From assembly GCF_004010195.1 (NCBI RefSeq), contig NC_057718.1, positions 101,342,629-101,406,628 of the forward strand: 64,000 nt of DNA. Reading direction: 5' to 3'. The notes under the pieces are model-generated. The model saw only the letters and a program-made list of their open reading frames with translations, was not told the DNA's origin and ran no database searches. How positions within the stretch are numbered: the stretch's first letter is position 1; each line of letters starts with the position of its first letter. A program made the position numbers and the translations under genes. The stretch is from Chiloscyllium plagiosum (taxonomy: Eukaryota). This document shows, in pieces, positions 615 through 62,885 of the stretch.

Positions 615-1013
615 TTGAAACTTTATTGCTGGAACAGCACAGCAGGTCAGGCAGCATCCAGGGAACAGGAGATTCGACGTTTCGGGCACAGGCCCTTCTT
701 CAGGAATGAGCAGAGAGTGTTCAGCAGGAGAAGATAAAAGGTAGGGAGGAGGGACTTGGAGGAGGGGCGTTGGAAATGTGATAGGTGGAAAGAGGTCAAG
801 GTGAGGGTGATAGGTCGGAGTAGGATGGAGGCGGAGAGGTCAAGAAGAAGACTGCAGGTCAGGAAGGCGGTGCCGGGCTGGAGGGATCCGGCTGAGACAA
901 GGTGGGGGGAGGGGGGATGAAGAAACTGGTGAAGTCCAAGTTCATCCCCTGCGGTTGGAGGGTTCCCAGTCGGAAGATAAGACGCTCCTCCTCCGACCGT
1001 CGGGTTGTTGTGG
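615..1013 (-). mobile_element. Young 5'-truncated Penelope-like element (Neptune-type): GIY-YIG C-terminus plus pseudo-LTR
   Basis: Minus strand translates TTTTRRSEEERLIFRLGTLQPQGMNLDFTSF, a typical PLE GIY-YIG C-terminal motif. Hammerhead core at 672-707. 13-bp TSD gtcttgaattctg at 602-614 and 1149-1161. Confidence 0.85.
672..707 (-). ncRNA. Minimal type-I hammerhead ribozyme motif (PLE-associated)
   Basis: Minus strand: auuc CUGAAGA a gggc cugu gccc GAAAC GUC gaau; stem I auuc/gaau, stem II gggc/gccc. Confidence 0.75.
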
Positions 1014-1344
1014 TTTGATCAGATCCTCCACAGGAGATGACCTCCTAACCCTAACAATGTACCAACATGGATTAACGCCTGACTAGCCACCAGGATACAT
1101 GAACATCAACTAACCACAAAACAACAAGACCCACTCTCACTAGAACTTGTCTTGAATTCTGACCTGTAACAGCCATGCTCCTGCTGTATTCCCCACCTCT
1201 CTATCCCAGTTCTCACTTTTTGAGAGGGGGGGGGGGGGAAGGAGTTGAGTCACGGCATTTTCCAATCCTCCAAAGGGGCTTGCAGTAGGAAAAGGTTTGG
1301 GAAGCCCTGAATGATTAAGGGGGTTGTGTAGAGGAAGAGGAGTA

Positions 1345-1770
1345 AGCCATTCAGCCCATCAAGCCCGCTCTGCCATTTAAATACGATCATCACAGAATCG
1401 CACTGAATTGTTATGGTGCAGAAAGAGGCCATTTGGCCCATCCTACCTGCACTGATCCTTCGTATGAGCACCATTCCCTAGTGCCAGTCTCCTGCTTTCC
1501 TCTCATATCCTTGCACGGTATTTCTTTCCAAATAACCATCCAATGTCCGTCTTGAATGCCTCAATTGAACCTGCCTCCACCATATTTCCAGGGAGTGCAT
1601 TCCGTGCCCTAACCACTCACTGAGTGAAAAATATTCTCAATTCACTCTTGCGGCTTTTAAACATCCCTTTAAATCCACGCCTCTCTCATTTCTTGTTCCT
1701 TGTGTGAGAGGCAACAGCTTCTTTCTTCTACTCTCTCCAGCCGCCTCATAATTTTGAAAATCTGTATCGA
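1345..1770 (-). mobile_element. Degraded CR1 3' end / 3' UTR fragments
   Basis: ggccattcagccc.. and cctgcctccacca.. motifs shared with other CR1 3' ends in the window. Confidence 0.6.
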
Positions 1771-2069
1771 ATCTATCGCCGAGCGAACACTTCAATGCTT
1801 TTTACCCATACTATGGGTCATTGGCAGTCAGACATGTATCAATCTCTGTTTTTTTACACAGACTAAAGGCCTCAGCTTCCTCAGCTGTCTGTGGGGCACC
1901 GTTCCCTATACATGGTGCAGCCACTGGAGGGTTCCACAAAAGCAGAACAGTGCACTGATGCATTGGCTTCCTCAAAACACTATTGTGCACTCTGTGCAGC
2001 AAGATAAACAGTGAGAAGGAGTGTTACTCTGTGGTGGAGAATTCCAAAAATTCACAAACCTCTGAGTAA

Positions 2070-3187: not shown

Positions 3188-3628
3188 TGTGAGGCATTTG
3201 TATGTAGGTTTGCTTGCTGAGCTGGAAGGTTCGTTTTCAGATATTTCGTCACCATATTAGGTAACATCTTCAGTGGGCCTCCGAATGAAGCACTGGTGGT
3301 GTAGCCCACTTTCAATTTATATGTTTGAGTTTCCTTGGGATGGTGATGTCATTTCCTGTAGTGACATCATTTCCTATGGTGATGTTATTTTCTGTTCTTT
3401 TTCTCAGGGGGTGGTAAATGGGATCCAAGTCAATGTGTTTACTGATAAAGTTGAATTGGAATGCCATGCTTCTAGGAATTCTCAAGTGTGTCTCTGTTTA
3501 GCTTGTCCTAGGATGGATGTGTTGACCCGGTCAAAGTGGTGTCCTTCCTCAACCGTATGGAAGGGTTCTAGTGAGAGTGGGTCTTGTTGTTTTGTGGTTA
3601 GTTGATGTTCATGTATCCTGGTGGCTAG
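3188..3628 (-). mobile_element. Penelope-like element (Poseidon-type) 3' fragment with GIY-YIG C-terminus
   Basis: Minus strand reads LATRIHEHQLTTKQQDPLSL..EEGHHFD..NTSILGQAKQRH.*EFLEAWHS; hammerhead core near its 3' end. Confidence 0.75.
3238..3275 (-). ncRNA. Minimal hammerhead ribozyme motif (Poseidon-type PLE)
   Basis: ca CUGAAGA u guuacc uaauau ggugac GAAAU AUC ug; 6-bp stem II, very short stem I. Confidence 0.6.
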
Positions 3629-4690
3629 TCAGGCGTTAATCCATGTTGGTACATTGTTAGGGTTAGGAGGTCATCTCCTGTGGAGGATCTGATCAAAAAA
3701 CCTTCTGAAATTCCGAGAACATTGCATCCAGTTTTATCAGTTTTGTTTGTAAAATCCTCAAAACACTCCAACGAATTTGTCAAACAGGATTTCCCATCCG
3801 CAAATCCATGCTGACTATGAAAGGACACTAGTTAGGCCAGTATTGGAATAATGCATGCAATTCTGGTCTCCTTCCTATCAGAAAGATGTTGTGAAACCTG
3901 AAAGGGTTCCAAAAAGATTTACAAGGATGTTGCCAGGGTTGGAGGATTTGAGCTATGGGGAGAGGCTGAACAGGCTGGGGCTGTTTTCCCTGGAGCACCG
4001 TAGGCTGAGGGGTGACCTTATAGAGGTTTACAAAATTATGAGAGGCATGGATAGGGTAAGTAGGCAAAGTCTTTTCCCTGGGGTTGGGGGAGGACATAGG
4101 TTTAGGGTGAGAAGGGAGAGATATAAAAGAGACCTAAGGGGCAACTTTTTCACACAGAGGGTGGTACGGGTATGGAATGAGCTGCCAGAGGAAGTGGTGG
4201 AGGCTGTTACAACTGCAACATTTAAGAGGCATTTGGATGGGTATATGAATAGGAAGGGTTTGGAGGGATATGGGCCAGGTGGTGGCAGGTGGGACTAGAT
4301 TCGGTTGGGATATCTGGTCTGCATGGATGGGTTGGACCGAAGGGTCTGTTTCCATGGTGTACATCTCTATGACTCTACTGTTGGACATCTCACAGGTCAA
4401 TAGTTCGCTGCTTTCTCTCTCGCTCCTTTCATGAGCAGTGGGGTAAAATTTGCTTTTGGGTCACCTGCAGGAATGGTTGTTGGACTGTTGGAATTTTGGA
4501 AGATGGTTACCAGGCATTGATTATGTCTGACCACCTCCTTCAACATTCTGGCATGTAAACGAACAGACCCTGGAGACTTACCAATTTTGATCCCATTAAT
4601 TTCTCCAGTTACAACATTCTTACAAATAATAATAATTTCTTTCAACTCCTCATTTCCCCTTCGTCACTCAGCCCTCTAATTCTGGGAAAG
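3629..4690 (-). mobile_element. Old CR1 RT fragment, interrupted by a younger CR1 at 3828-4377
   Basis: SQHGFADGKSCLTNSLECFED (3625-3828) and KSPG..LHARMLKEV..IFQNS (4397-4645). Confidence 0.75.
3828..4377 (+). mobile_element. CR1 LINE 3' end
   Basis: ORF 3855-4298 QFWSP..RFTRMLPGLEDLSYGERLNRLGLFSLE.RRLRGDLIEVYKIM..FFTQRVVRVWNELP, then 3' UTR ending ctctatgactcta. Confidence 0.92.
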
Positions 4691-4699
4691 CCGAAAGAA

Positions 4700-4877
4700 G
4701 TGCGGATGCTGTAAATCAGAAACAAAAACAAAAATTGCTGGAAAAGCTCAGCATGTCTGGCATCATCGGGTCCGCCGACCCTTCCTCAGAACTGACCCGA
4801 AACGGTAACTCTGATTTCGCTTCACAGATGCTGGCCGACCTGCTGAGCTTTTCCAGCAATTTCTGTTTTTGTCTCGA
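4700..4877. mobile_element. PLE-derived inverted-repeat element, family C (ctgaggaagggtc..gacccgaaac)
   Basis: Arms aaattgctggaaaagctcagc / gctgagcttttccagcaattt with partial hammerhead cores at the centre. Confidence 0.65.
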
Positions 4878-4907
4878 ATTCTGGGAGTTTTCTTGTGTAT
4901 GGGGGAA

Positions 4908-5000
4908 CGAATGTGTGGTGCTGGAAAAGCACAGCCGATCAGACAGCATCCGAGGGGCAGGAGAATCGACATTTCGGGCATAAGCCCTTCATCGGGAACC
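4908..5000 (-). mobile_element. PLE pseudo-LTR fragment, family A (older variant)
   Basis: Similar to 615-710; degenerate core ccgaugaagggcuuaugcccgaaauguc. Confidence 0.65.
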
Positions 5001-5054
5001 CTTCATCACTTTCTCCTGGTTTTCTTGTACATAATCCTTGGTGAAGCTCAGAAA

Positions 5055-5233
5055 TCCTCAAACACCAGCTTATGGTCTGTCAGGTTTATTTGAAATCATG
5101 AGCTTTTAGAGCACGGGTGAACCTGATGAAGGAGCAGTGCTCTGAAAGCTTGTGATTTCCTATTGGACTATAACCTAGTGTCATGTGACTTCTGACCTTG
5201 TCCACCTCAGTCCAACACTGCACCTCTACATCA
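5055..5233 (+). mobile_element. PLE-derived inverted-repeat element, family B, with hammerhead core at 5119-5155
   Basis: ac CUGAUGA a ggagc agu gcucu GAAAG CUU guga, followed by the ttggactataacct..gtgacttctgac tail. Confidence 0.7.
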
Positions 5234-6754
5234 GTACTGGTGAAAATAGTCTGGCAAACAGTCAGAATCTTCAATAGTTAAAGCCTAAGTAAAATTATGA
5301 AGTTGCACTTTACTTACCAGCTAATACTGAGGAGCAGATTAAATAAACTGAATCGCCTTTGAGGTATTGTCGGACATTTTGCATCACCATGGGATGGCAA
5401 CTGACTATAATTCTGATTTTGTGCAACCTCTTCTGCAATTGGCTTTAACTGTGCAACTTCAAAGTAACAATGAGGACAAATGCTGAGGGCAATATAAATT
5501 TAATTTTCACTGGGGCGACTCTGTGAAAAATGAGCACCGGCCAATATTTTTACATGCATTAAAGGAAAGCACAAAAAAATCCATATTTCTTTCTGTCCCT
5601 TGAACACCCACTTCATTAGGTATTAGATACAGAATCATAGTCAGTAGTACGGATATGATAAATATCTTGATTTATGGGGATGAATCACAATCCCTGTCAC
5701 TCAAGAGATACCCAGCTGGCTTCACTAGTGGAGGTATTGATTTTGTTACATTGCTGACCATGGTTTAACGCTGTGTAGGAGTAGTGCAATAAATGAAGTT
5801 TATCATTTCGGTATCACGTTCTGCCTTATATGCTTAGCATTATCTCATTTCCACTTGTAATGAACAGAGTTTGGAACCTGTGTCAGACCAGTATTACTTT
5901 AGCCATCTCAGTGACTGGTAGCAGTTTTATGAAGAAAGGTTATTATTGATGCAGGGCAGTTAGGGAAAACTAATATGTACATACAGAAGGAAACATTTAT
6001 TGCTGATAAATTGGTACTGTTGAAATTTCTCTGCAGCTGAATTAATGTGCTGCTGCTGATTGAAGTGTGTGGCACGTCTCTGGTTTATATATCAAATAAA
6101 CTTGAGATGGCCTAAACAGTGTTGAAAGAATTTTCAAGTGCTATGGAGAATGGAACCTGATGTTGCATTCACATTACGGAGGAGTACATGTAGCTGTGAC
6201 CCAGAGGTTTCAAGATTAAGTCCCTGCGCTCCACAGCCAGGATATAAGATGTAGATCGCATTCAGCCTTGTGTGTGCTGGACCACCTGCAGTGCTTCATC
6301 CAGTAAATTAATTCTGATGGCTCGAAATTATAGTCCTCATGGATTCCAGGTCAGCACACACATCAGCTTCCCTCACCTGTCAACCCACTGAAAGGGCTAG
6401 AATGAACTGTCTGAATAGCATTGATTCCCTCTGCCCCTGCAGTCTGATGCTTAAAACGTGTGACTCCCCATTAACCACTTGATTAGATTTGGACCCAAGT
6501 TGTATTACGATTTCACAAACGAGCAAAATGAGTTCATGACGGGTGATTCAAATTGTACTAACTCTTGAAGAAGAGGGTTTATATCTCGCTTAATCCTGTT
6601 TTGCATCTGTCCTCCATGATTGTGCCTGTTACCTGTGACAATACAGATTCCAAGGTCTTTCAGTGATACAGGGGGTTCTTCTGATTAAGTGATATGTTGA
6701 GTTGAAAACAACATCATATTTAAGCTCCTCACACTCTACCAGTGCTGGCTTATG

Positions 6755-6985
6755 AACACAAGGAATGCTGGACGAACTCTGCAGGATCTGTAGAGAGAGA
6801 AAAACAATTATCGCTTCGAGTTCAGTGCGACTCTTCTTCAAAACTCATCTTCAGTTCTGAAGAAGGGTCAACTCAAAATGTTAACTCTGTCTCTCTCTCC
6901 ACGGGCACTCCCAGACTTGCTGAGTTCCTCCAGCATTATCTTCCTTTGTTTCTGATTTCCAGGAGCTGCAGTATTTTGTTTGTAT
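6755..6985. mobile_element. PLE-derived inverted-repeat element, family C
   Basis: agtt ctgaaga agggtca..aaaatgtt aact with an inverted partner arm. Confidence 0.6.
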
Positions 6986-7184: not shown

Positions 7185-7640
7185 TTAGGAATCAACCACC
7201 TTACTGTGGGTCTGGAGACACATGTAGGCCAGACCAGGTGAGGATGGCAGATTTCCTTCCCTAAAGACCATGAGTGAACTAGGTGGGCTTTTATCACAAT
7301 TGACAGTGGTTACATGGAGAAGAAAGTGAGGACTGCAGTTGCTGTGGAGAGTCAGAGTTGAAAAGTGTGGCACTAGAAAAGCACAGCAGGTCAAGCAGCA
7401 TCCGAGGAGCAGGAGAATCGATGTTTCGGGCATAAGCTCTTCATCAGGAATGTAGTTACATGGTGGCCATTGGACTAGTTCTGGCCATTGAATCTGTATC
7501 CTTAGAAAATGGAGTATAGGTTTACTAGTCCAGTGACAGTACCACTATGGTATTGCTACCCCAACTAGAGTTTGGAGTCACATGTAGGCCAGACCAGGAA
7601 AGGGTAGCAGATTTCCTTCCTGTTAGAACCAAAGTGGAAG
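7185..7640 (-). mobile_element. SINE-like interspersed repeat (cacatgtaggccagacc..cagatttccttccc family), with a PLE inserted at 7318-7452
   Basis: The same motif recurs at ~28640-28850, ~30000-30220, ~47470-47800, ~48000-48350 and ~58000-58300. Confidence 0.6.
7318..7452 (-). mobile_element. PLE pseudo-LTR family A with tail; hammerhead core 7416-7451
   Basis: auuc CUGAUGA a gagc uuau gccc GAAAC AUC gauu; flanked by the approximate duplication gttacatgg. Confidence 0.7.
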
Positions 7641-9159: not shown

Positions 9160-9346
9160 AGCAATCAAGGAGCAAGAGAGTCGATGTTTCAAGTATAAGC
9201 TGTTCATCAGGCTTTCTCCTGATGAAGAGTTTATACTTGAAACGTTGACTCTCCTGATCCTCGGATGCTGCCTGACCTGCTGTGCTTTTCCAGCACCAGA
9301 CTTTTCGACTCTGATCTCTAGCATCTGCAGTGCTCACTTTCTCCTA
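9160..9346. mobile_element. PLE family A inverted pair (degraded)
   Basis: ttcatcagg-ctttct-cctgatgaa centre with opposed hammerhead-like cores; tail ctgcagtgctcactttctcc. Confidence 0.7.
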
Positions 9347-9838
9347 AGCAATTAGCAGTCAGCTTGTGCCACCATCAATAAAGTAATGACCCGATAATTT
9401 TTCACTGCTGATGACTTGGGGATAAATATTGTCCAGGATACTGAGGTAATTCCCTGACTTGTCTTCAAATTGTAACGTGTTAATCTTTACAGCTGCCAGA
9501 GAGGTCTAAAGGAACCTTGATTTAACCATTCTTCAAAATGATTGACCCCTCGCTGAATGCAACAGTTCCTCAGCGCTTGTCCTACACATGTAACAATGGA
9601 AGGATTCCATCTCGCCCTAGTTTTGATTTCTCTCTGAGTGAACTTATTCGCAACTTGTTGTTTCTGAGCTTGACTCTTTAAGCTCCTTGATTCAAAATCT
9701 GTCTCTTCTATGCCATTCTTTGTTGGGGACACAAATAAATAACTCTCAGTGTCAATGAAGTGTTGTGTAAGACAGAATTCACCTGGGATATGTAACGAAG
9801 AAGTGGCAGATGAGAGTACAATTGCAACATTCAAAAGA

Positions 9839-10110
9839 TTGAAACTTTATTGCTGGAACAGCACAGCAGGTCAGGCAGCATCCAGGGAACAGGAGATTCG
9901 ACGTTTCGGGCACAGGCCCTTCTTCAGGAATGAGCAGAGAGTGTTCAGCAGGAGAACACTCCTGCTGAACACTCTCTGCTCATTCCTGAAGAAGGGCCTG
10001 TGCCCGAAACGTCGAATCTCCTGTTCCCTGGATGCTGCCTGACCTGCTGTGCTGTTCCAGCAATAAAGTTTCAACTTTGATCTCCAGCATCTGCAGACCT
10101 CACTTTCTCC
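9839..10110. mobile_element. Young PLE family A inverted insertion: perfect 116-bp palindrome plus 36-nt tail, inside a CR1 3' end
   Basis: 9839-9954 is the exact reverse complement of 9959-10074 (loop aaca). TSD caacatt(c/a)aaaaga at 9825-9838 and 10112-10125. Confidence 0.9.
9982..10017 (+). ncRNA. Minimal type-I hammerhead ribozyme motif (mirror copy at 9896-9931 on -)
   Basis: auuc CUGAAGA a gggc cugu gccc GAAAC GUC gaau. Confidence 0.75.
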
Positions 10111-10265
10111 CCAACATTAAAAAGAGATTTGAACCGGTACATGGATTGGAAAGGTTTAAAGGGATGTGGACCAAATGCAGGCAAATGGGACTGGTTCGAT
10201 TTAGGAAACCTGGTCAGCGTGGATGAGTTGGACCGAAAGGTCTGTTTCTGTGTTGTATTAATCTA

Positions 10266-10472
10266 TCAGAAGTCACACGACACCAGGTTATTGCTCAATT
10301 ATTTGAAATGACAACCTTTTGGGGCGCTGCTCCTTCATCACATGCACTTCAACTGATGAAGGGGCGGCATTCCAAAAGCTTGTCATTTCAAATAAACCTG
10401 TTGGACTATAACCTGGTGTCATGTGACTTCTGACTTTGTCCACCCCAGTCCAACACTGGCACCTCCCCATCA
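10266..10472. mobile_element. PLE family B inverted pair (degraded hammerheads)
   Basis: tcagaagtcacacgacaccaggtta / taacctggtgtcatgtgacttctga arms; central ctgatgaaggggc..aaaagcttg. Confidence 0.7.
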
Positions 10473-10496
10473 TTTCTGACTCTATGAGCATCTGGT

Positions 10497-11054: not shown

Positions 11055-11730
11055 AATGATCATTGAAACGTAGAGATGCTCTGGTGCAGAGGGATCTGAG
11101 AGTCCTTGTGCATGAATCGCAGAAAGCTAGCATGCAGGTACAGCAGGTAACAGGGAAGGCAAAATGGATTTTGGCCTTTATTGCAAAAGGAATGGACTAT
11201 GAAAGTAGGGAAGTGTTGTTGCAACTGTATGAGGTGTTAGTGAGACCGCACCTGGAGCACTATGTACAGTTTTGGTCCCTTTACTTGAGGAAGGATGTAA
11301 ATCCATTGGAAGCGATTGAAGTAGATTAATTCCAGAGATGAAAGGCTTGTTTCTCGACTTTAGAAAAATGAGAAGAGACATAATTAAGGTATCAAAGATT
11401 GTAAAGGGAATTGACAAAGTGGATGTAGAGAGGATGTTTCCTGTTGTAGGGCAATCTAGAACGAGGGGTCATAGTTTTGGGATAAAGGGTAGCAGATTTA
11501 AAACAGTGATGAGAAATTACTTCTCTCAATGGGTCATGAATCTGGGAACTACTCCCCCAGCTTGCAGTGGATGCCTGGATACTGAATAAATTTAAAATGG
11601 AGATAGACAGATTTTTAATTAGTAATGAGTTAAAAGATTATGGGGAAGTGGTAGAAAAGTAGAGTTGAGGCTGAGGTGAGGTCAGCCATCATCATATTAA
11701 ATAGCAGAGCAGGCTCAAGGGGCTGAATGA
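11055..11730 (+). mobile_element. CR1 3' fragment
   Basis: QRDLRVLVH..LLQLYEVLVRPHLEHYVQFWS..TRGHS. Confidence 0.85.
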
Positions 11731-12228
11731 GCACAGCAGGACAGGCAGCATCTGAGGAGCAGGAGAATCGATGTTTTGGGCAAAAGCCCTTCATCAGGAA
11801 TGAGGCTGTGAGCTGGATGGTGGGGGGGTGGAGGTGGTGGAGAGACAACTAGGAGGGGGTTGGAGCTGGGGGGAATGTAGCTGAGAGTGCAATAGGTGGA
11901 TGGAGGTGGGGGTAAAGGTGATAGGTCAGAGGGGACGGTGGTGCAGATAGGTGGGAAGGAAGATGGACAGGTAGGACAGGTCATGAGGGCGATGGAAGGT
12001 TAGAAGTGGGATAAGGTGGGGGGGAGGGGAAATGAGGAAACTGGTGAGTGAGGAAACTTTATCTCAGCTCCTCTATTTATCTGTCCACCCCCTCACCTCA
12101 CAGCCTCATTCCTGATGAAGGGCTTTTGCCCGAAACATCAACTCTCCTGCTCCTCGGATGCTGCCTGACCTTTTCTAGCACCACACTCTCGACTCTAATC
12201 TCTAGCATCTTCAGTTCTCACTTTTGCT
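11731..12228. mobile_element. PLE family A inverted pair (older); hammerhead core 12108-12143 (+)
   Basis: Purine-rich 3' region like 730-930; auuc CUGAUGA a gggc uuuu gccc GAAAC AUC; mirror core ~11766-11801. Confidence 0.8.
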
Positions 12229-18650: not shown

Positions 18651-18657
18651 GTGAGGT

Positions 18658-23904: not shown

Positions 23905-24599
23905 ATATTGGGAAATGTTGGTTCAGGAGTGGGAAAGAGGTGAGGCTGTACAGTGATTTGCAAACAAGGATACAAATTTTAAAATCAAGCTGTTGTTTAA
24001 GTTGTATCCAATGTAGGTCAGCAAGGTCAGGGGTGATGGATGAACACTCAGTGTGAGTGAGGTAGTAGAGATTTGAATGATTTCAAGTCTGCAGGGGTTA
24101 CGATGTGGGATACCGGCTAGGAATGCTTGAGGATATTCAAGGGAATAGAGGCGTAGGTAAACAAAATGCATTCTCGTTTCCTGCAAAAAGTTGAATTGAA
24201 GACATCCTCTGCATTCTACAACAGAATAAATAGATGTCAACGAGCAGTATTAATTTCACCAAACGGCATTGGACAGGAAGATTGATACCAGCTCTGTAAA
24301 GCCTTAGTTCAACAGAATAACTTGTCAACTGTACGTTTGTAAAATTTGTTCTAAAGCAACATGCCGTGATAATTAGTACTCGGCACATTCTTACTTGGAG
24401 TCTGCAGCTGACTGATAATCAAAGTATCTGAAATGTGGCAGAATATATTATTTCCCTCATTCCACACGGTGTCTCTATTTTTTTTACGTGCCAGCAGAAA
24501 AATAACCATTCCATTAGCTGCAAAGATTAATGGTCTTTATTTTGAAGCTGTTTATAGTCGAGGTGCGTCTCATTTAGACCAAGAACTCTGATCAATTCT

Positions 24600-24850: not shown

Positions 24851-24951
24851 TGGGCTCAAATTCAGGAATTTGTCAGAGCGCTTCCATTCTAAACGTTTTA
24901 CAGCTTTAAGTTACGAGCAGTGATAATTTTAAGCAATGGCAATGAAGGATA

Positions 24952-44872: not shown

Positions 44873-44881
44873 CTCTAGGTT

Positions 44882-45633: not shown

Positions 45634-45860
45634 GTGCAAAAACCTACCAAGCCACTTCCAACAGCACCTTCCATTCTATGTCCCCTATCACCTACAGGCC
45701 AAGACAGGTACAGGGAAATATTACCACCCACAACCTCGCATCCAAGTCACACATTTTGTTGTTCTTTCCATGTCACTGGGTCAGTATCCTGGAATTAACT
45801 TCCACATTATGGGTGGCCCTACCCCACCAGTACAGCAATGGCTACAGAAGGTAGCCTTAG

Positions 45861-46056
45861 TGTGGAGGTGCCAGTGTTGGACTGAGGTGGGGAAAATCAA
45901 AAGTCACACGACACCAGGTTATAGTCCAACAGGTTTATTTAAAATCACAAGCTTTCGGAGCATTTACGTCAAGCAAAGTTGCAGTGATCCAAAAGCTTGC
46001 GACTTCAAGTAAACCTGTTGGACTATAACCTGCTGTTGTGCGACTTTTGACCTTGG
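45861..46056. mobile_element. PLE family B inverted pair
   Basis: caggttatagtccaacaggtttat / taaacctgttggactataacctg arms. Confidence 0.7.
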
Positions 46057-46333
46057 CTGCAGAATGCAACTCACCATCCCCTCCAAGGGCAATTAGGGCT
46101 GGGTGAATTGCATATCCCATGCATGAATAAATGGAAAACAGTAAAGGTAACAATGCAGTGATTTAGTGGAGGAATTCATTTTTGGAATGGCTTATTTATG
46201 ATGAGTGTGAGAGATTTAAGAGAAATTGCATAATGGCTGGAGGTGACACAGTCACAGTGGGCTAGAGGGTTTCCTGCTTTGCTGTTACGTTCCACGATCC
46301 TGATGGAATATCTTTGTTCCTTTTTGTTTTCAG

Positions 46334-47420: not shown

Positions 47421-48829
47421 TGGAGGAGACTCATGTGGAATACACACACCAGCACAGATTAATTTTACTTTTCTTTATTCTTACATGGGATGTGGGGATC
47501 ACTGGCCAGGCTGGCATTAATGCCAATTCCTAATTGCCCCTTGAACTGTGTGGCAGTTAAGAGTCAACCACATTGCCATGGATCTGGAGTCACATGTACC
47601 CAGACAGCATAAGGATGTAAGATTGCCTCCCCTGAAGGGGATTAATAAATCAAATGCTGTTTTTGTTTGTGACAATCAACAATGGTTTCATCGCCATTTG
47701 TACAAGGGCTGGGTTTTAAAGACAGATTTTCAATTATAATCCTGCCATGGTGGGAAATAAAGGCAGAACATTTGAAAGCCTGGGCAGTTCTAACCCTGTG
47801 ACAATATATGGCACCATCTTCACTCCCAACCTCCGGACTGGGCTATTTCAGTGCTGTACGCCTGAGGTAATTTCTCTGTCCAGGACACAAAGTGCAATTC
47901 AACCTCCACAAACAAAATGAAGGTTGGAATGTGATGTAGAACATATTTAAACGCATTATATCCAGTGACATAACTTTTTAAAATATTTTTTATTTTTATT
48001 ATTCATTTTTGGGCTGTGGGTATCCTGGCTGTGCCAACATTTATTGCCCATCTCCAATTCCCCTTTGATCTGAATGACCTGCTGTATAAGAGATAAGAGT
48101 CAGCCATTTTACAGTCACATGTAAGCCTGACCAGGTAAGGATGACAGATTTCCTTCCCTGAAGAGTATTAGTGAATCAGATGGGTTTTTATGACAATCGT
48201 CAATGGTTATGTGTTTGCCATTAAGGTAGGTTTTTCTTCCAGAGCTTTGTTGAATTCACCACCATTTGCCAAGATGGGATTCAGCAGAGCATTAGTATGA
48301 GTTTCTGGAGTATTAACCCAGTGACATTACAATTACGTCACTTTGCCTCCCCCAGATATTCTCTACAGAGAGCTGGTATGAACCAAATAGCCCCCTTCTA
48401 TACATTTTTATACTTTCTGATCAACCTGTTGAGAAATGTTATTTACACACCTCTGAAGCAGGTGGGATTTGAATGGTTCACCTGACAAAGCAACAGCCCT
48501 CCAAACGCTAGTGATTTCAAATCAACCTGTTGGACTATAACCTGGTGTCAGGTGACTTCTGACTTCCTCCTCCAAGTGCAACTTACAACAGGTCGGATTT
48601 TCCAAATTCGGCTCAATTTGAAATCCTGACAAAGCACGCTAACAGTTAACAGAATCATGGTGATCTATGTTTGGCCGATGGCAGAGTGAGCAGGGATTAG
48701 ATGGGGCGTGATTTAAAAGGTGATTAGAAAAGGGTTAGTACAAGAATGCTGCAGATTTATTGAACATTTCCATCACTGCGTTCTGTCCTCTATCCCATTC
48801 CCTGCCCTCTTGGAAAAGGTTTCCTCGAG

Positions 48830-49027: not shown

Positions 49028-50827
49028 CTTCTACTTCATGATCTGAATGAGCAATAGAGTCTGACACTCGTGTGACTTTCTACTGGACCCTTCTGCTGCC
49101 ATTTGCTGTGACTTTGAGGAGGGCATTGTAAAACAGGATGAAAAGCATTCTGCAAATTCCTGATGATTGAGCTGATAAACCGCTGTGTCAGCGTTTACAA
49201 TTTCTGCCGGAATTGCTGCTGTGGGAGTCGAGGCTGGGTTTTTTTCAGTGTGAAGAAAGCATAATTCACCACTTAGCTGTCACTTACCCCCATGCCACCT
49301 CTTCCACTGCTAGTAAAGAAGTCTGAGACTTTTTTTAACGCAATGTTTACATTGCTGTTAGCCAAGAAGCTTTAAGTGCCTACATTTTACAAACTGAAGA
49401 GGCCTCTTGAGGAACGCAAAGTCATTCCATAATCAAGGCATCTTGAAAACTTAATACTGAGCAATCTTCCTGCTGTTTGAACAGCCCTCACTTTGTCAAC
49501 TTGGTGACCCTGAAACCCTGCTCTATCTGTTGGGTGAAGAAGCCATTCCTCAATTCCTCAGCCTGTTGTACCTTTTATCTACGGTGTCTGCCAACACAGA
49601 GGTTAGATTACAGCAGAGTGAAAGTGCAGCGGATCAGAATTGAGTGGGCCACTCCATTTGAACAATCTACAAACACAAGCTTTGTGAGACTGACCACAGA
49701 CAGGGGAGTGCAAAGTCGATTCTGACAAACGGTGATATGAACCCAGCAAGTGTCCAGGCTGTAGCTTGTAAGAATCTGTCAGAATTGGTGATCAACTCAA
49801 GAGCTCCTTCGTGAGAAAAAAACAAGAGATTGTCTCGCTGCCAAATTCATGATAATAAAGAACCCATTACCAGAGGTGGTCTTATTGCTGAAAGTCACAG
49901 CAGCTCTCAGAGAGCTTGTGTATCTAATCTGAATATTTTACTTGTCTGCCTTCCTTATATCCCCAGGACATGTATAACCCTAGCTCACACTTTGTTTATC
50001 AGTCACTGTGCAAAGTGCTGCCTTGTGCCACAGGCACCCAATACAAATTTAGAACTGTCAGTGTCCAGTGTATGGCATCTGTACAAACACTCAGCACTCC
50101 TCACAAATTCCTACAGGTGGTACAAATGTTTTATGGGATCTTTGGTAATGATTAGTGTTTGTGTTAAAGGAGAGTCATGGGGGCTGGCAGCAGCCTGAAG
50201 GGGATAATTGGTGGCATGGTTGACAGGACGGATGTCAGGCAATACTTTGGACATTGTCTCCTAATTAATATTTGTGGAGCTCCTAAAGGTCATTTAAAAA
50301 TGCTGCACCATCATTTATTGCTCCTTATTACTGAGCTGTGTACTGTTTGAATGTAAATTGTTAATAATAAGTGCAGTCTAGACCCAATTAGCACAATTAA
50401 AGGTTCTAGCAATATGTTGTTCAGCTTCAATTAACATTCAAGTGAAAGTTAATTATCACTTTTTAACCAAATAAAATGTTTAATTAGGTCTGCGTTCTAG
50501 AAAAGGAACCAAATTAACTTTATGTTTTAAATATACAAGTCATAAGAGACCAGAGAAATGGTCGATTCAATTCTTCTGTTTCTCTTTGTAGTGATGGGTT
50601 GGGAAAGCAACATATAGCAGGCCCATGCTATCAAAACAGTAAAGGGACTCTTCAGTTGCAGTGGTAGAGTCCCTACCTCTGAGCTAGACAGCGCTGGTTT
50701 AAGTCCCACCTCCTGCAGAGGTGTGTAATAACATCTCTGAGCAGATTGGTTAGAAAATCTCTATAAATGTAGCAAGCCAATGATATAAATTCATGGCTGT
50801 GAATCTTGAATATCACCTTTTCTTTGA

Positions 50828-51013
50828 TCTGGAGGTGCTAGTGTTGGACTGGGATGGACAAGGACAGAAGTCACATGATACCAGGTTATAGTCCAACAGG
50901 TTTATTTGAAATCACAAGCTTTCGGAGCGCTGCCTCTTCATCAGGTGAAGTGAACGTGATGAAGGAGCAGTGCCTGTTGGACTATAACCTGGTGTCGTGT
51001 GACTTCTGACCTT
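50828..51013. mobile_element. PLE family B inverted pair; hammerhead core 50912-50948 (-)
   Basis: ucac CUGAUGA a gaggc agc gcucc GAAAG CUU guga; stem I ucac/guga. Confidence 0.75.
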
Positions 51014-52310
51014 TTCTTTGACCAGCCTCCTGACACTTCCTGACTCAAATCCCTACAGTCCTTCAGCTCTGGCCTCTTGCTCGCCTCGCCTTTATTCTTG
51101 GAAGTCTGCCTTTGTCTATATAGACACAAGGTTGGTCTGCCTTAACTTCAATCTCCTCCAATCAGAATTGTTCCTGCGGCCTACCCTTTCACCAAGCTTT
51201 TGGCCACTCCTCCTTCAGTGGCTGGATGTCATGCCTGGTCTGATAAGGTTTCTACGCACTGACTTGGGAGTGTTCTACCTCCTTCGAAACGATTTGAAAA
51301 CATAGGAAATAGGAGCAGAATGAGGCCGTTCAGCCCCTCTAGAGTGTAAAGCCATTCAAAGAGATCATGGTTAATCATCTGTCTATATGTCACTATTCCA
51401 GTTTCCCTTGATGGCATCTCCAGATGTTTATCAGTTTCCGTGTTGAACATGCACAATGATTGAGCTTCCTCGGCCCCCGCAGACGATCACTCATCAGTGA
51501 AGAAATGCCTCCTCATCTCAAGCTTAAATAGTCTCCCTCTTATTTTGAGACTGTGCACACTCTTTCTGGACTTACCAGCCTGGGGAAACATCCTGGCAGT
51601 CTCTGTACAACTGCAGCAAGACATCTTCCCTCCTGCACTGGACATATAAATGTGATTTGTTGTTGCTGAGGGTCACACGTTAGGCATGTGGATAAGACCG
51701 AGTCCCGAAGCAAGGTTGGCACCAATTATATAACGGGGAAAGAGGAAAATATTACCAGAAGAGAGAGTAAGAGGCTAAACTGCATTATGGACGTTTACTT
51801 GTTTCCTGTCAAAACACTTGCCAATTGAGTACTGATTCTGGGCAATGTCGGGGAATTTAATTGTGTTAATTTTCAAACACTGACAAGGGGGTAATTTTGC
51901 CAGAAGTTCCATTTTCAACAGATGTGATGAACCTTTTAAACACATATAGGCAATTTTAATCACAGGACTAAGCGCTTCAATTAAAAATGCTCTTTTTTTT
52001 GCGATAAGCCCATTTTCAGCTGTATTAATAAAATTTCACCAAGCTATCACTCTTCTCGAGGAATATTTTTAAACCAACTTTTAAAAATCACGTTCAAATT
52101 CTGAGTTGCATAGCCTGAATTTTGACTAGTTCAGAGATAAGGACACTGCCGCTGCAACAGAAGAACCCCATTGGCTATTCTGCTCTCAAGGGTTTGCCAT
52201 ATGATGTTTTCCCAACCCCATCAGCCCTATTTTAGAACTGGTTAATTCATCATAAATAGAAACAGGAGAATTGAACATGCGCATCATTGATTAAATTGTC
52301 AAACTCCGAA

Positions 52311-53699: not shown

Positions 53700-54050
53700 A
53701 GCAGATTACTGCAGATGCTGGAATTCTGAATCGGAAGCAGAAAGTGCTGGAGAAACTGAACTGGTTTTGCAGCATCTGTGGAGAGATGTCTTCTGAAGAG
53801 GAGTCATATTGCACTGGAAACATTAACTCTGTTTCTTACTTCACTGGTGCCTGCTGAGTTTCTCCAACAATTTCTGATTTTGTTCACAAGTCATATACTT
53901 GCTGGCTGCATTGGGGGACTTCATCCACAAGATGCAACTTACCATATTGAACTAAAAGCAGAAATAGCTGGAGAAACTCAGCCGATCTGTCAGCATCTAT
54001 GAAGAGAAATCAGAGTTGACACTTTGAGTCCAGTGACCCTTCTTCAGAAC
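53700..54050. mobile_element. Two PLE family C remnants
   Basis: ttctgaagaggagtc..gaaacattaact (+); agagttgacactttgagtccagtgacccttcttcagaac (-). Confidence 0.6.
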
Positions 54051-55643
54051 CCTTAGAACATAGAGCATTCCAGTGCAGTACAGGCCCTTTGGCTCTTGAT
54101 GTTGCACTTCTGGTTGGTTCCACATGTCAGCACATCTAACCTACACTGTTCCATTTTCATCTATACATTTATTCAATGACCCAAATTCAATGCCCTTAAA
54201 GTTGGTGAGTCTACCACTGTTGCAGGCAGTGCATTCCACGCCCCTCCTACTCGCTGCGTACCTCTGACATCTGTCCTGTGTCAATCACCCCTCAATTTAA
54301 AGCCATGTCCCCTTGTGATAGCCTTCACCATCTGAGGAAAAAGGCTCTCACTGTCCACCCTATCTAACCCTCTGATTATCTTACATGTCTCGATTATGTC
54401 ACCTCTCAACCTTCTTCTCTCCAACAAAAACAGCCTCAGTTCCCTCAGCCTTTCCTCGTAAGACCTTTCTTCCATACCAGGCAACATCCTAGTAAATCTC
54501 CTCTGAACCCTTTCCAAAGCTTCCACATCCTTATAATGCGGTGACCAGAACTGTACATAATACTCCCAAGTGCGGCCGCACCAGTGTCTTGTACAGCTGA
54601 AGCATGACCTCATGGCTCCAAAACACAATCCCTCTACCAATAAACGCCAATGCACTATATCCCTTCTTAACAACCCTAGCCACCTGGGTGGCAACTTTCA
54701 GGGATTTATGCACCTGGACACTGAGATCTCTCTGTTCATCTAAGCAGCCAAGAATATTACCATTAGCCCACTACTCTGCATTCCTGTTACTTCTTCCGAA
54801 GTGAACTACCTCACATTTTTCCTCATTAAACTCCATTTGCCACTTCTCAGCCCAACTCTGCATCTTATCTATGTCCCTCTGTAACCCACAACATCCTTCG
54901 GCACTATCCACAACTCTACCAACCTTAGTCTCATCTGTAAATTTACTAACCCATCCTCTAGCCCACCTCCAGATCATTTATAAAAATGACAAACAGCAGT
55001 GGCCTCAAAACAGATCCTGGTGACACACCACTGGTAGCTGAGCTCCAGGATGAACATTTCCCATCAACCACCACCTTCTGTCTTCTTTCAGAAGCCAATT
55101 TCTGATCCAAAACACTAAATCACCTTCAACCGAAACTCCTTATTTTGTGCAATAGCCTACCGTATAGAACCTTATCAAACGCTTTACTGAAATCCACATA
55201 CACCATGTTAACCGCCTTACCTTCATCCACCTGTTTTGTTGCCTTCTCAAATAACTCAATAAGGTTAGTGAGGCATGACCTACCCTTCACAAAACCGTGT
55301 TCATTATCCCTAATCACATGATTCCTTTCTAGATGATTATCCTATCTCTTATAACCTTTCCCAACACCTTACCCACAACCAAAGTAAGGATCACCTGTCT
55401 ATAGTTACCAGGGTCGTCCTGACTCCCCTTCTTGAACAAGGCAACAACATTTGCTATCCTCCAGTCTTCTGGCACTACTCCTGACGACAATGATGACATA
55501 AAGATTGAAGCCAAAAGCTCTGCAATCTCCTCACTGGCTTCCCAGAGAATCTGAGGATAAATCACATCTGGCCCCAGGGTCTTATCTATTTTCAAATCTT
55601 CCAAAATTGCTAAATCCTCCTCTTTGTCAACCTCAATCCCATC

Positions 55644-55777
55644 CCTTCATTCCTGAAGAAGGGCCTGTGCCCGAAACGTCGAATCTCCTGTTCCCTGGAT
55701 GCTGCCTGACCTGCTGTGCTGTTCCAGCAATAAAGTTTCAACTTTGATCTCCAGCATCTGCAGACCTCACTTTCTCC
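55644..55777 (+). mobile_element. Young PLE family A terminus with tail
   Basis: 55647-55777 is identical to 9980-10110; 13-bp TSD cctcaatcccatc at 55631-55643 and 55776-55788. Confidence 0.9.
55649..55684 (+). ncRNA. Minimal type-I hammerhead ribozyme motif
   Basis: auuc CUGAAGA a gggc cugu gccc GAAAC GUC gaau. Confidence 0.75.
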
Positions 55778-57269: not shown

Positions 57270-57975
57270 TCTAGGGTGTTAGTTCAGTGACAGTGAAGGA
57301 CTGAATATATACTTCCAACTCAGGACGGCATACAGCTGGATCAAAACTTGGGGATGGTGTTCCCAAGCATCCATTGCTCTTGTTCTTCTCGGTGGTAACT
57401 AGTTATGTCACAGGTTCAGAAGCTGCAATAGGAGCTTCTGAGCTGTGTCAGGGTAACTTGTGAATGGTGCGCACTGCGCCAGATCAAGATGACTGTTTTG
57501 TCCCTGGATGGTGTAGAGCTTCTTGAGTGTTGTTGGAGCTGCACCCACCCAGGGCAAGTGGGGAGTGTTCCATTACATGGAGATGTAAGCTTGTCGATGG
57601 TGGACAGGCTCTGAGGAAACTGGAGTTGAGTAACTGGTCGTAGCTTTTGTAGTCACTGTATTTTTATGGCTGGACAAGTTCAGTGTCGAGCCCCAGGATG
57701 TTGATAGTGGTGTCGGCAAAAGTGAGTACTGCAGATGCTGGAAACCAGAGTCTAGATTAGAGTGGTGCTGGAAAGCACAGCAGGTCAGGCAGCATCCAAG
57801 GAGCAGGAAAATCCTGATGAAGGGCTTTTGCCTGAAATGTCGATTTTCCTGCTCCTCAGATGTTGCCTGACCTGTTGTGCCTTTCCAGCACCACTCTAAT
57901 GTTGATAGTGGCATATTCAGCATTGCTAATGCCATTGAATGGTTCGATCCTCTCGGATTGGAGATGGTCATTGAC
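57270..57975 (-). mobile_element. L2/CR1-clade LINE 3' fragment
   Basis: agcttcttgagtgttgttggagctgcaccc, as at 16331-16360. Confidence 0.7.
57711..57898. mobile_element. PLE family A inverted insertion with a single central hammerhead core
   Basis: 13-bp TSD atgttgatagtgg at 57698-57710 and 57899-57911; CUGAUGA a gggc uuuu gccu GAAAU GUC. Confidence 0.85.
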
Positions 57976-59490: not shown

Positions 59491-60661
59491 GTCAGAGGCC
59501 AAACAGGGGTATGTTGGAATGGCTGTGTCCATCAAGGGGGATGGGGATACAGTGAGAATACAGCATTGAGGTAGAGGATCAACCACGATTGTGCTGAATG
59601 GCACAGCAGGCTTGGATGGCCAAATGGCTCGGTTCTTTCTCATCCTCTCCCAGAATCTGAGAATCATTGGCAAGGCCAGAATCAGGAAGTGTCCTGAAGG
59701 AGGTGCTGGTGAGCTGCCTTCTTGAACCGCTTCAGTGAGCATTCCGGGAATGCCGCTGGGAAGGGAGATTTTTACCCAGTGGCGATTATGGTTCCAAGTC
59801 AGGACAGTGGGCGATTCGGAAATTGGAGACAGTGGTGCTCTGACAGGAACTGTTGCCCCTGCCCCCCCCCCCCCCCCCCCCCCTCCCCACTACTGGTTGA
59901 GGTGGGTATGTCACTCTGCTCATGAACTGAGGACCAGGATGAGACCATGTATGTGACCAATAGGCAGGATGTTTCTGACCCTCTCACGTAAGGATGTGGA
60001 AATAACTCACTTTGTAGCTGCACATTAAGCAAACCTACCGGAGATTTTCAAAACATTGAAACCACTTCATTTGCCAGACCTGAGTGAGAATGCATCAGGG
60101 ATGGGAACACAGAAGCAATACATTATTTATTCCTCAGGTTGATTGTTCCATGGTCCGCACAGGACTTGTTGTCTTCACCAGGGTATTTAATCATTTTCTG
60201 TATGCTTAACCTTCTCATTGTCAAATCTCCTTCCTCCCCCATTCTACCCTCTGCTTAACATGCACACCAATAACTGGCAGTCATGGGGCCACTTATTTCC
60301 ACACCCTCACTGTAGCACTTTGCTGCTCAGATTCCTCCTGAGTGCCTGTCATGTGGTGTCTTCCTGCTGCTTGGCTCTTAAATGAGGAATGGAACAGAGT
60401 TTGTCCATTTGGAAGGTGCTACCAGAGAAGCCTTGGTAACTTCCTGTGTAGTCACTACCATGCTGATGGTGCACACTGCTGTAGGCACTGAGGATCAGCG
60501 CCAGAGCAATTGGATGAGGTCGGTAGGGAGCGTGGTGCTGATCAAGTGGCCTGGGCTGCTCAGTCCTGGAAGGTGCTGAGGTTCTTGAGTGAGCTGAGTA
60601 TTCCATCAGATTCCTGGTGTGCTTTGGATATGGTACACAGACTTCCAAGATGATCTGATCT

Positions 60662-60991
60662 GGGACAGCGTGGTAGCTCAGTGGTTAGTATTGCTGCCTC
60701 ATAATGCCAGGGACCTGAGTTCAATTCCAGCCTTGGAGTGTGGAGTTTGCACATTCTCCCCATGTTCCCTCTGGGTGCTCCAGTTTTCTCCCACAACCTG
60801 AAGATGTGCAGGTTAGAGTGGATTGGCCATGCTAAATTGCCCATAATGTCCAGAGAAGTGCCGACTATGTGGGTTATCCATCGGAAATGCACGATTACAG
60901 GGATGGGGTGGATCTGGATGGGATGCCCTTCAGAGGGTTGGTACAGGCTCAACGGGCCAAATGGCCGCCTTCCACAGTGTAGGAATTCTAT
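60662..60991 (+). mobile_element. HE1-like tRNA SINE
   Basis: tagctcagtggtt A box; conserved core and tail. Confidence 0.8.
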
Positions 60992-62792
60992 GGCCCTGCC
61001 AGCGATGCAATGATGAGGTTTTTACCTTCAGCAGGGTATTTGCACCTGAATATGTGATGCTTATTTTGCCTCCCATTACATCAGAAGAAGGCGGTACTGA
61101 GAGATTCGATAGACGTTTATTATAATTCCTGGTACCAACATCCATTACAGTCAAAGGCAGTCCTGCGTTCCGAGCACAAACTGGGTACAAAGTAGAGGAT
61201 GATTCCCTCAGGGTACTGTGCTACAAGTGGCTCCAGTATGATGGACCCTGAGCACTTTATACCATTGGGTCACATCCTGTGAAATGGTGATAAATACCTC
61301 TTAAAGGTGGCAATGACAGGGTGATTGTGGTATACTGCAGACTAGCTGAAGGCGTTACACAACAGAGGAGACAGGAGATGTCCAGGTCACTGATCATCTC
61401 TTCCATCCACTGTATTTATGTGTCTGGTTCAGTTATCAGTTGTGACCTCCTGCCCCCCATCTCACCCCAGATGTTGTTGGTGGTGGGGGAGCCTAGCTTG
61501 GTTGCACTGCTCAGCCCTAAGCCCTGAGTTGGACGCTGTCTCCTTCACCACATGTGCCAGGCCTGGAACGGCACCATCTCATCATCACTAGGCCCAGCTC
61601 GCCACTGGGCCACTGATGCCGGGTCCCGTGGTGGACCCATACTTGCCCCACAGCCAGGAGTCCCTGGGTTTGCTGCCACTACTGCCTCACCAATTACCAG
61701 GGAGTCTCTGATCCAGGCCTACCAGCACCAGGACACCCTAGCTCCACTGCCTCCAATTCGCTGATTAGTGCCAGACCCTGGATACGGGCCTACTGCAACA
61801 TCCATGCCCTAGCTCTGGGCCTACTGCTACCAGGAGTCCTTGGTTCCACTGCCAGGCCAGGCTGCCTCTCTAAGGATCCCAATCCGCCCACCCACCTCTG
61901 TGATGTCACTTTCTCCACTGCCGCTGACAGGAAGAAGCTGAAGGAAAAGGAAGAAGACAAACAGGATAAGGAAAGAAGAGAGGAAGTGGCCAGTCTGGAG
62001 TAGATGGGACCAGGAGCCTGAATGCTGCCTACCTCACTGGCATCGCCATCTTGGAAAGGATTGTGCACTGCCTTTCTAGTACGAGAACATCGTACCATAA
62101 CGATAACAGCTCCAAATCCTGTGTTCTATGCAGAAATATATCTGTACACATGTTGAGTCAATGATGGCTCCAGTTGAAAATTTGTTATCACTGGAAGTTG
62201 AGTTCAATTGTCAACTTGGCCCCAAGTCAGACAGATATGGTCTAATGAGTAGCAGCAAGCTGAGGTTTTTTTTTTGCTAAGAGTTTTGGTGCCTCTCTTT
62301 CTCAGAGAGTTAATCAGTCAGTGGCAGACAATTTGGTCTGTGAGGATAATTAATCATTCTTTTCATTGTCTATATGTCAATGCAGCTCTTACCTCTTGAT
62401 AGCCATTGGGAGAGGATAGATAACTCATTTGACCCAAACATGTTTTCATCAGGTGCCTAGTGTGATGCATGTTGGAAGTTCCAGCTGCTTCACTTCCCCA
62501 GCCCTGGCTCATGTTTACATTAGTCCCTGTAACTTGAATGCAACTTGAACCACTTAGTTTTCCACTTTATTCTTTGTTTTTACTCATAGAGGCATTGGAC
62601 AGTACAATGCTAAATATTTTTGTTAAAAATTGGCCAGTTAAGTGAGCACCAAAGTAATGGTGACACAAGAAAAATCCTTTATCACCCAGCCCGAGTAGTT
62701 AGGGTGTGGAATGCACCGCCTGGAAACGTGGGGGAGGCAGGTTCACTTGAGGCATTCAAAAGGAACATTGGATGTCTTTTTGGATAGCAATA

Positions 62793-62885
62793 AATGCAGA
62801 GAGTACTGGAGAAACTCAGCAGGTCTGGCAGCATCTGTGGAGAGAGAGGAACAGAATTAACGTTTCGACTCTTCTTCAGAACTGG
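62793..62885 (-). mobile_element. PLE family C terminus
   Basis: aguu CUGAAGA agaguc GAAAC GUU aauu (stem II partly deleted). Confidence 0.55.

What the first reader, a model, noticed from the sequence alone, without database searches (positions are those of the whole stretch)
615..62885. Dense population of hammerhead-ribozyme-bearing Penelope-like termini from four families, with covarying stems
Seen: about 20 short elements, many retaining CUGA(A/U/G)GA-stem II-GAAA-NUH. The stems differ between families but keep pairing. Family A: stem I auuc/gaau, stem II gggc/gccc. Family B: ucac/guga, ggagc/gcucc. Family C: aguu/aacu, ggguc/gaccc. Poseidon-type: stem II guuacc/ggugac. All have an extra nucleotide between A9 and G10.1, and in the best copies helix III is reduced to a palindromic tetramer (ACGU in A and C, AGCU in B). 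Established: PLEs carry minimal type-I hammerheads thought to act as dimers, and an extra residue at that position occurs in the CChMVd (+) hammerhead. Inference: several parallel ribozyme-carrying retroelement lineages exist in this shark, and families B and C appear here only as non-coding termini.
Basis: partly seen in the sequence, partly recalled or inferred. Interest (0 to 1): 0.75.

Follow-up and report, generated by a model that had tools for sequence, protein, structure and literature searches.

The report
Penelope run-off stubs carrying minimal hammerheads
These short repeats are the hammerhead-bearing ends of several Penelope-type jumping genes, a known pairing, and most copies begin just in front of the motif rather than at its predicted cut site, so they are likely dead-end copies of uncut RNA that mark where the element's transcript starts.

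Summary
Confirmed: 39 arms at 25 insertions, 14 with an intact minimal hammerhead core; strict motif 11 hits against 0.16 in shuffles. Minimal hammerheads in Penelope-like element (PLE) termini are published, with every listed trait (PMC4209133). B and C are not merely non-coding: longer copies elsewhere carry PLE coding sequence. Density is about twice a genome sample. In young subfamily A1, 55 of 100 arms start at -6..+3 around an initiator-like A at the base of helix I, 6 of 100 near the cut site; genome-wide counts agree. In B, C and P the start lies about 30 nt behind a TATA box. In 24 of 24 head-to-head pairs exactly one arm has the 34-nt tail. Best reading: run-off copies of uncleaved RNA, primed from both target strands. 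RNA reads did not show the start. The scan has noted this reading on other DNA of this and other genomes.

The parts
614..1013 (-). Young A1 copy: end of GIY-YIG endonuclease frame (..RLIFRLGTLQPQG..), 3' UTR, initiator-like A at 707, hammerhead core 703-676, ends at the tailless start point (+90); 13-nt target duplication
1014..1146 (+). 133-nt filler identical to the reverse complement of 3565-3697, between the A1 5' end and the target duplication
3192..3697 (-). Family P (Poseidon-type, name recalled): decayed endonuclease end, TATAAA, hammerhead core from 3273, stem II guuacc/ggugac
325..379 (+). Family B stub without hammerhead
363..445 (+). Family C stub without hammerhead
4687..4887 (.). 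Family C head-to-head pair (4687-4794 minus, 4793-4887 plus); cores damaged
4908..4998 (-). Older family A arm, core changed (CCGAUGA)
5041..5227 (.). Family B head-to-head pair; plus arm has an intact core
6752..6978 (.). Family C head-to-head pair, decayed
7323..7452 (-). Older family A solo copy starting at the initiator, intact core, with tail
9160..9340 (.). Older family A head-to-head pair, both cores intact
9834..10110 (.). Young A1 perfect palindrome (116-nt arms, 4-nt spacer): minus arm tailless, plus arm with tail; target duplication of about 14 nt with one mismatch
10226..10471 (.). Family B head-to-head pair, decayed
11716..12224 (.). Older family A head-to-head pair with upstream UTR; TATA-like TATTTAT at 12074-12080, initiator-like A at 12108
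24599..24856 (.). Family C head-to-head pair, decayed
28844..29070 (.). Family C head-to-head pair; minus arm has an intact core
35066..35268 (.). Family C head-to-head pair, decayed
38279..38413 (-). Family C solo copy starting at AGUU (-4), intact core
45856..46064 (.). Family B head-to-head pair, both arms lacking CUGA
48477..48581 (+). Family B solo arm, decayed core
50824..51016 (.). Family B head-to-head pair; minus arm has an intact core and the tail
53701..53897 (.). Family C head-to-head pair, decayed
53948..54051 (-). Family C solo arm, GAAA damaged
55646..55777 (+). Young A1 solo copy from about -6 to the tail end, inside a LINE-like reverse transcriptase remnant, flanked by a target duplication
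57719..57900 (.). Older family A pair joined through the helix I complementarity: the minus arm begins at the 3' strand of helix I
62784..62884 (-). Family C solo arm with stem II deleted

Best explanation
The repeats are the hammerhead-bearing ends of at least four Penelope-like retrotransposon lineages, and the short ones are likely run-off DNA copies of uncut element RNA, running from one of two internal copying start points back to the likely transcription start. SHOWN: each family's terminus follows PLE coding sequence in longer copies; 3' ends fall at two fixed points (+90/91 and +125 in A1, numbering the C of CUGA as +1); 5' ends pile up at the base of helix I; pairs are head-to-head with one tailed and one tailless arm inside a target duplication. 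INFERRED: (1) the terminus holds a TATA box and initiator that start a capped RNA a few bases before CUGA, so the hammerhead is the RNA's first fold; (2) the enzyme starts internally, as shown in vitro for the anole element (PMC11167929), so on a unit transcript it can copy only 95-130 nt, much like retroviral strong-stop DNA; longer copies need read-through RNA; (3) both nicked target strands can prime, one at each start point, and the two cDNA ends join by 2-8 nt of self-complementarity; (4) the ribozyme, kept by selection in the parent elements, had usually not cut the RNA that was copied, and the stubs are inert by-products.
For: Coding links: A (Pfam GIY-YIG above cut-off), C (endonuclease upstream in L116 and L105), B (reverse transcriptase, zinc-finger-like linker and endonuclease in L061; endonuclease in L012, L013), P. 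Exact-word counts for A1: +61..+90 18,614; +1..+33 12,020; -23..+7 5,223; -62..-33 4,876: a 57% fall over 24 nt, then 7% over 39 nt. Of 100 arms picked by a downstream anchor, 55 start at -6..+3, 14 at -18 or beyond, 6 at +25..+30. Starts at -4 preceded by a purine number about 2,100 (1,307 G; 79 of the 100 listed of 1,021 A/T are A) against 135 at the cut site. The start follows the TATA box, not the core: TATAAA at -33 in C (25 of 30 loci start at -12..0), -40 in B1 (12 of 30 B loci start at -9..-4), -48 in P (2 of its 4 short copies start at -21, -18). 24 of 24 pairs have one tailed and one tailless arm; 16 of 24 have a 12-17 nt target duplication. In 8 of 24 pairs (7 independent) the tailless arm reaches 7 nt or more further upstream than the tailed arm, so neither arm can be a copy of the other. 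In vitro, uncleaved RNA is the main substrate and both strands are extended (PMC11167929).
Against: No RNA evidence for the start: 541 reads of a single-cell polyA run were laid, 88% ran on into unrelated flanks, and no place with many molecule starts was listed. A1 has only a weak TATA-like word. Cap-G support is modest: G precedes -4 in 56% genome-wide against 26% expected, but 52 of 114 (46%) on contig C1, 19-20 of 30 G cases are inverted junctions where the other arm can supply the G, and only 2 of 30 show target duplication plus one extra G. Target ATT microhomology blurs solo 5' ends. P mostly reads through (16 of 20 loci extend 46 nt or more). Some fold-back units were recopied, so arms are not all independent. 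One W-set pair has the tail on both arms (L259). After removing copies that merely carry a substitution, ends at the cut site are about twice the control site (27 of 30 of 135 vs 12 of 30 of 150), though about 14 of those 27 are microhomology junctions.
Confidence: 0.7

Rival explanations
1. Ordinary 5' truncation: the enzyme stalls or falls off at the folded hammerhead, and inverted pairs arise by self-priming fold-back, as proposed for rotifer PLEs on an antisense template (PMC3846280).
For: Stem II is predicted to form with probability 0.91-1.0. Some junctions use the helix I complementarity (window 57810; 8 of 30 loci). No RNA 5' end was seen.
Against: A stall should leave ends at the 3' side of the fold (+20..+33), yet ends lie after the whole fold has been read; helix I is predicted weak (0.10-0.16 in the full module); the start shifts with the TATA box across families; fold-back cannot give pairs in which each arm holds sequence the other lacks (8 of 24).
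Confidence: 0.15
2. The RNA 5' end is made by another processing step, such as a splice acceptor at the base of helix I (as in Drosophila virilis Penelope) or a nuclease, or the peak is inflated by the endonuclease's ATT target preference.
For: The D. virilis intron ends at the 5' end of helix I (PMC4209133); family C has AG at -4/-3; target ATT often overlaps the first bases of solo A1 copies.
Against: No shared upstream exon in short copies; A1 has no AG there; C copies usually keep the AG; the peak is as strong in inverted pairs, where no target DNA lies at the junction.
Confidence: 0.08
3. The stubs are independent non-coding mini-elements (retrozyme- or SINE-like) that are transcribed, self-cleave as dimers and spread on their own; B and C would be such families.
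For: Very high copy number (about 320 arms per Mb); tandem non-LTR retrozymes derived from PLE termini are reported in vertebrates, one chondrichthyan included (bioRxiv 10.64898/2026.07.22.740005); some fold-back units here were recopied.
Against: No direct tandem among 39 window arms; copies do not begin or end at the cut site; B and C have coding parents; stubs lack the upstream TATA box.
Confidence: 0.07

Closest known systems
[quoted passage not shown]
   Same: [quoted passage not shown]
   Different: The parts read name fishes, coelacanth, Xenopus, turtle and snakes but no shark, and do not map copy ends. Supplements not read.
Anolis Poseidon element PAc (Frangieh et al. 2024, PMC11167929; read parts 1-2 of 4)
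   Same: Two internal copying start points that define the tail; both strands cut and extended; uncleaved RNA the main substrate; no RNA-seq ends at the cut site.
   Different: In vitro, one Poseidon element; the parts read do not report run-off at the transcription start or the one-tail rule in pairs. Here three families are Neptune/Nematis-type.
Canonical EN+ PLE insertion unit: pLTR, inverted 5'-truncated copy, 30-40 bp tail (PMC8557442 and PMC3846280; passages)
   Same: Head-to-head inverted termini, tail on one end, target duplication, putative TATA plus initiator in the pLTR.
   Different: Those papers ascribe the tail to endonuclease resolution and the inversion to self-priming; the counts here favour priming from both strands.
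Non-LTR retrozymes (bioRxiv 10.64898/2026.07.22.740005; part 1 of 5 and passages)
   Same: Type I hammerhead, derived from PLE termini, dispersed monomers exist.
   Different: Defined by tandem units each with a hammerhead; the window copies are solo or inverted.
Retroviral minus-strand strong-stop DNA; twin priming of L1 (both recalled)
   Same: Short cDNA from an internal start to the RNA cap; two primers on one insertion giving an inversion.
   Different: Analogy only: no tRNA primer, target-primed, and both arms copy the same 5' module.

Membership tests
Minimal type I hammerhead of PLEs | CUGANGA and GAAA boxes with stem II, G10.1-C11.1 | tested here: met
   14 of 39 window arms intact; 24 of 32 strict hits have G-C
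Minimal type I hammerhead of PLEs | Extra nucleotide after A9; palindromic ANNU; NUH cut site | tested here: met
   30 of 32; 21 of 32 exact (27 with CpG decay); H17 not G in 32 of 32
Minimal type I hammerhead of PLEs | Short helix I with covariation | tested here: met
   Different 3-4 bp helices in A1, B, C, P; C-G/U-A swap in P, 17 of 19 distinct rows paired, one subfamily split; older A has a U-U mismatch
Minimal type I hammerhead of PLEs | Self-cleavage as dimer or with protein help | not testable with these tools
   Co-folding gave a partial dimer without the intermolecular helix III; no clear excess of copies starting at the cut site
EN+ Penelope-like element | PLE reverse transcriptase and C-terminal GIY-YIG endonuclease upstream of the terminus | tested here: met
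   Endonuclease for A (Pfam 27.5 bits, cut-off 22.6), C and P (below cut-off, 17.2 and 22.3 bits), B (no Pfam match; tblastn and motif only); reverse-transcriptase motifs read by eye for B only, no Pfam match; no intact full ORF seen
EN+ Penelope-like element | Inverted terminus, 30-40 nt one-sided tail, target duplication | tested here: met
   24 of 24 pairs one-tailed, 34-nt tail, 16 of 24 with a 12-17 nt duplication
Neptune/Nematis clade (A, B, C) versus Poseidon (P) | Zinc-finger-like linker before the endonuclease; placement on a tree | tested here: inconclusive
   Cysteine linker seen in A (L062), decayed in C (L116) and B (L061); not examined in P; no tree with named references was built, clade names are recalled
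Non-LTR retrozyme | Tandem repeats, each with a hammerhead | tested here: not met
   0 direct tandems among 39 window arms; a few short tandems exist elsewhere (L062, L118)

The most novel reading that the evidence does not exclude
PLE transcripts in this genome start at the first base of the hammerhead, the element's enzyme primes on both cut target strands at its two internal start points, and both copies run off the capped end of uncleaved RNA. Roughly a million stubs would then be a genomic record of the start site, explain the head-to-head, one-tailed shape of PLE insertions, and show that the conserved ribozyme acts off the copying path, for instance by removing the capped first 32 nt.
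Probability: 0.55. Interest if true: 0.62.

Novelty: new member of a known kind. Interest (0 to 1): 0.4.

Why it matters
The motif-element pairing is known, so the finding as written adds shark-type examples. The anatomy of the copies bears on two open questions: what the PLE hammerhead does, and how the inverted, one-tailed insertions form. A young family with 12,020 exact copies of a 33-nt word gives in vivo counts that match the in vitro results for the anole element and yields exact predictions (start at -4, priming at +91 and +125) for 5' RACE and priming assays. It also tells annotators that these 95-130 nt repeats are PLE by-products, not SINEs, MITEs or microRNA hairpins.

Tried and rejected
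Rfam scan: no hammerhead family; five microRNA-precursor matches are far below gathering scores and come from the palindromes. DNA search of the own genome returned nothing because common words are skipped; exact patterns were used instead. Sequencing runs: no RNA holder listed; of four runs laid, X22 gave 0 reads, X21 541 mostly chimeric reads with no start pile-up, X9 and X1 are contigs: no evidence either way. A permutation test of helix I partners was uninformative because family A dominates the 32 hits (10 observed, mean 5.0, max 9 for 3 or more pairs; 7 observed, max 8 for 4 or more). The first control for the cut site (+37, 150 matches) was inflated by a sister subfamily: 18 of 30 loci continue upstream. 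Folding put helix I at low probability and gave no clean dimer. Three long A1 copies were interrupted by runs of N, so no full frame was read. AAUAAA in A1 and B was considered as a poly(A) signal and dropped: older A and C lack it. Ungapped end mapping misplaced at least 2 of 100 arms with small indels; they were left in the count. The 12 arms of six overlapping palindromes among the first 42 A/T cases were not fetched (one search examined 30).
Full report
Observation. A strict hammerhead scan finds 11 sites in the window against 0.16 in shuffles (one search lists 12 with a looser spacing, one of them a chance hit at 20630-20710). Profiles built from natural copies find 39 arms at 25 insertions: 12 A, 10 B, 16 C, 1 P; 14 of 39 keep all core letters. 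Twenty-eight arms form 14 head-to-head pairs and none is a direct tandem. Traits outside the search pattern recur: extra nucleotide 30 of 32, U16.1 30 of 32, H17 not G 32 of 32, palindromic ANNU 21 of 32. Helix I is short, and in the commoner older A copies it is broken by a U-U pair. In P, column 6 and column 45 swap together between C-G and U-A (7 and 10 of 19 distinct rows, 2 unpaired); this is one subfamily split, and stem II could not vary because it was in the search pattern. Core columns are more conserved than downstream columns in A, B and C, with an upward bias from core-intact training copies. Thirty-six 10-kb pieces at round coordinates of contigs C1-C8 hold 110 arms in 343,737 bases, about half the window's density; extrapolated, roughly a million arms (my arithmetic).

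What they are. The A1 copy at 614-1013 carries the end of an endonuclease frame about 210 nt upstream of the core, and the same family's frame in L062 matches Pfam GIY-YIG above cut-off. Family C copies L116 and L105 run back into a related endonuclease. Family B in L061 has decayed reverse-transcriptase motifs, a cysteine linker and an endonuclease, also seen in L012 and L013; Pfam did not recognise these B pieces. P follows its own endonuclease. So all four are termini of endonuclease-bearing PLEs; clade names are recalled.

Where copies begin and end. Numbering the C of CUGA as +1, the predicted cut follows +28. Exact-word counts for A1 fall from 18,614 (+61..+90) to 12,020 (+1..+33), 5,223 (-23..+7) and 4,876 (-62..-33). 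The first 100 matches of the downstream word on contig C1, all fetched, start at -6..+3 in 55 cases (mode -4/-3), at -18 or beyond in 14, and at +25..+30 in 6. Position -4 is the A of an initiator-like word (consensus YYANWYY, recalled) and the first base of helix I. In loci chosen for an intact core, short copies start about 30 nt behind a TATA box wherever it lies: -33 in C (25 of 30 start at -12..0; two of the 30 are one locus), -40 in B1 (12 of 30 B loci start at -9..-4), -48 in P (4 of 20 short, at -21, -18, -8, -2). Purine-preceded starts number about 2,100 at -4 and 135 at +29; a control at +37 gives 150, of which 12 of 30 checked are true ends against 27 of 30 at +29, about 14 of those being junctions fixed by microhomology (read by eye). 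A small excess at the cut site is therefore not excluded, but it is at least tenfold below the -4 peak. An extra G before -4, expected if the cap is copied (known for L1, recalled), is enriched genome-wide (56% against 26%) but less on C1 (52 of 114), and most G cases are ambiguous junctions; 2 of 30 show target duplication plus one G, against none of the 14 solo A/T cases with a single extra base.

Pairs. Among the 100 arms, 76 sites include 24 close head-to-head pairs, all with one tailed (+125) and one tailless (+90/91) arm; 16 have a 12-17 nt target duplication. In 8 pairs the tailless arm reaches 7 nt or more further upstream, so neither arm templated the other. Junctions often use the near-palindrome around CUGA or the AT of two -4 ends (14 such overlapping pairs among 100 listed matches). 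Some fold-back units were recopied with flank (L051 and L063 share junction and more than 130 nt of flank; six loci share one junction, one of them tailed on both arms), so independence is incomplete.

Mechanism. Most likely (0.7): transcription starts just before the hammerhead; the enzyme primes on nicked target DNA at one or both internal start points and runs off the RNA's 5' end, leaving a 95-130 nt stub or a head-to-head pair. Fixed ends, pair geometry and coding links are shown; the start site, the cap, twin priming and the uncleaved template are inferred. Rivals: structural stall with fold-back (0.15), another processing step or target microhomology (0.08), independent mini-elements (0.07). 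RNA reads were uninformative.

Literature. PMC4209133 (parts 1-2 of 4) describes the motif, all its listed traits, opposite-strand pairs and low activity in vitro. PMC11167929 (parts 1-2 of 4) shows two internal start points, extension of both strands, protein-assisted cleavage and uncleaved RNA as main substrate. PMC8557442 (passages) and PMC3846280 (passages) describe the inverted, one-tailed unit, and the latter a putative TATA and initiator and a self-priming model. PMC2377424 (passages) finds a TATA-less internal promoter in D. virilis, with the intron 46 bp after the start, so the layout here is not universal. The retrozyme preprint was read in part 1 of 5 and passages. Searches listed no paper on run-off at the start site, twin priming in PLEs or shark hammerheads; none of the listed PLE papers holds the words 'twin priming'. 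The library lacks most subscription papers, and no supplements were read; those of PMC4209133 and PMC11167929 may bear on shark motifs and copy ends.

Earlier notes of this scan (55 hold the search words) reach the same reading on other DNA; my run-off and one-tail results were noted before that look-up, while the extra-G test, the cut-site test and the either-arm-longer argument followed it. They are not counted as support.

Verdict. A real feature and a new member of a known kind; interest 0.4, carried by the testable copying model rather than by the hammerheads.

Noticed in passing
window 1014-1146 and 3565-3697: The A1 insertion at 614-1013 has, between its 5' end and its 13-nt target duplication, a perfect 133-nt inverted copy of DNA 2.4 kb away (the 5' end of the P fragment), with a 3-nt overlap: a templated capture at the junction.
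   Followed up: partly
L051 and L063; L252, L259-L262, L265; L264 and L268: Identical fold-back junctions recur at different sites, in L051/L063 with shared flank and in four loci with a shared variant: fold-back stubs appear to be recopied as units. Pairs with the same 259-, 207- and 202-nt spacing recur in the list.
   Followed up: partly
genome-wide: G-preceded starts are 56% genome-wide but 46% on C1, with strand imbalance (718 vs 589): one such copy may be amplified in an array elsewhere.
   Followed up: no
L120, upstream of the family C terminus: A further hammerhead-bearing stub with a different stem II and downstream module, suggesting a fifth family.
   Followed up: no
L105, L120, L061: Stubs of one family sit inside the UTR or coding remnant of another PLE family.
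   Followed up: no
window 41974-42889 and 30349-30943: Tandem arrays of 56 nt (near-perfect) and 33-34 nt units.
   Followed up: no
window 10495, 27323, 31974, 47162, 52308, 59085, 60661 and inverse copies: Abundant tRNA-like SINE family (HE1-like, name recalled) and LINE 3' ends.
   Followed up: no
window 43109-44093 minus: Frames resembling a LINE ORF1 with an esterase-like stretch (GDSIVR.., recalled motif).
   Followed up: no
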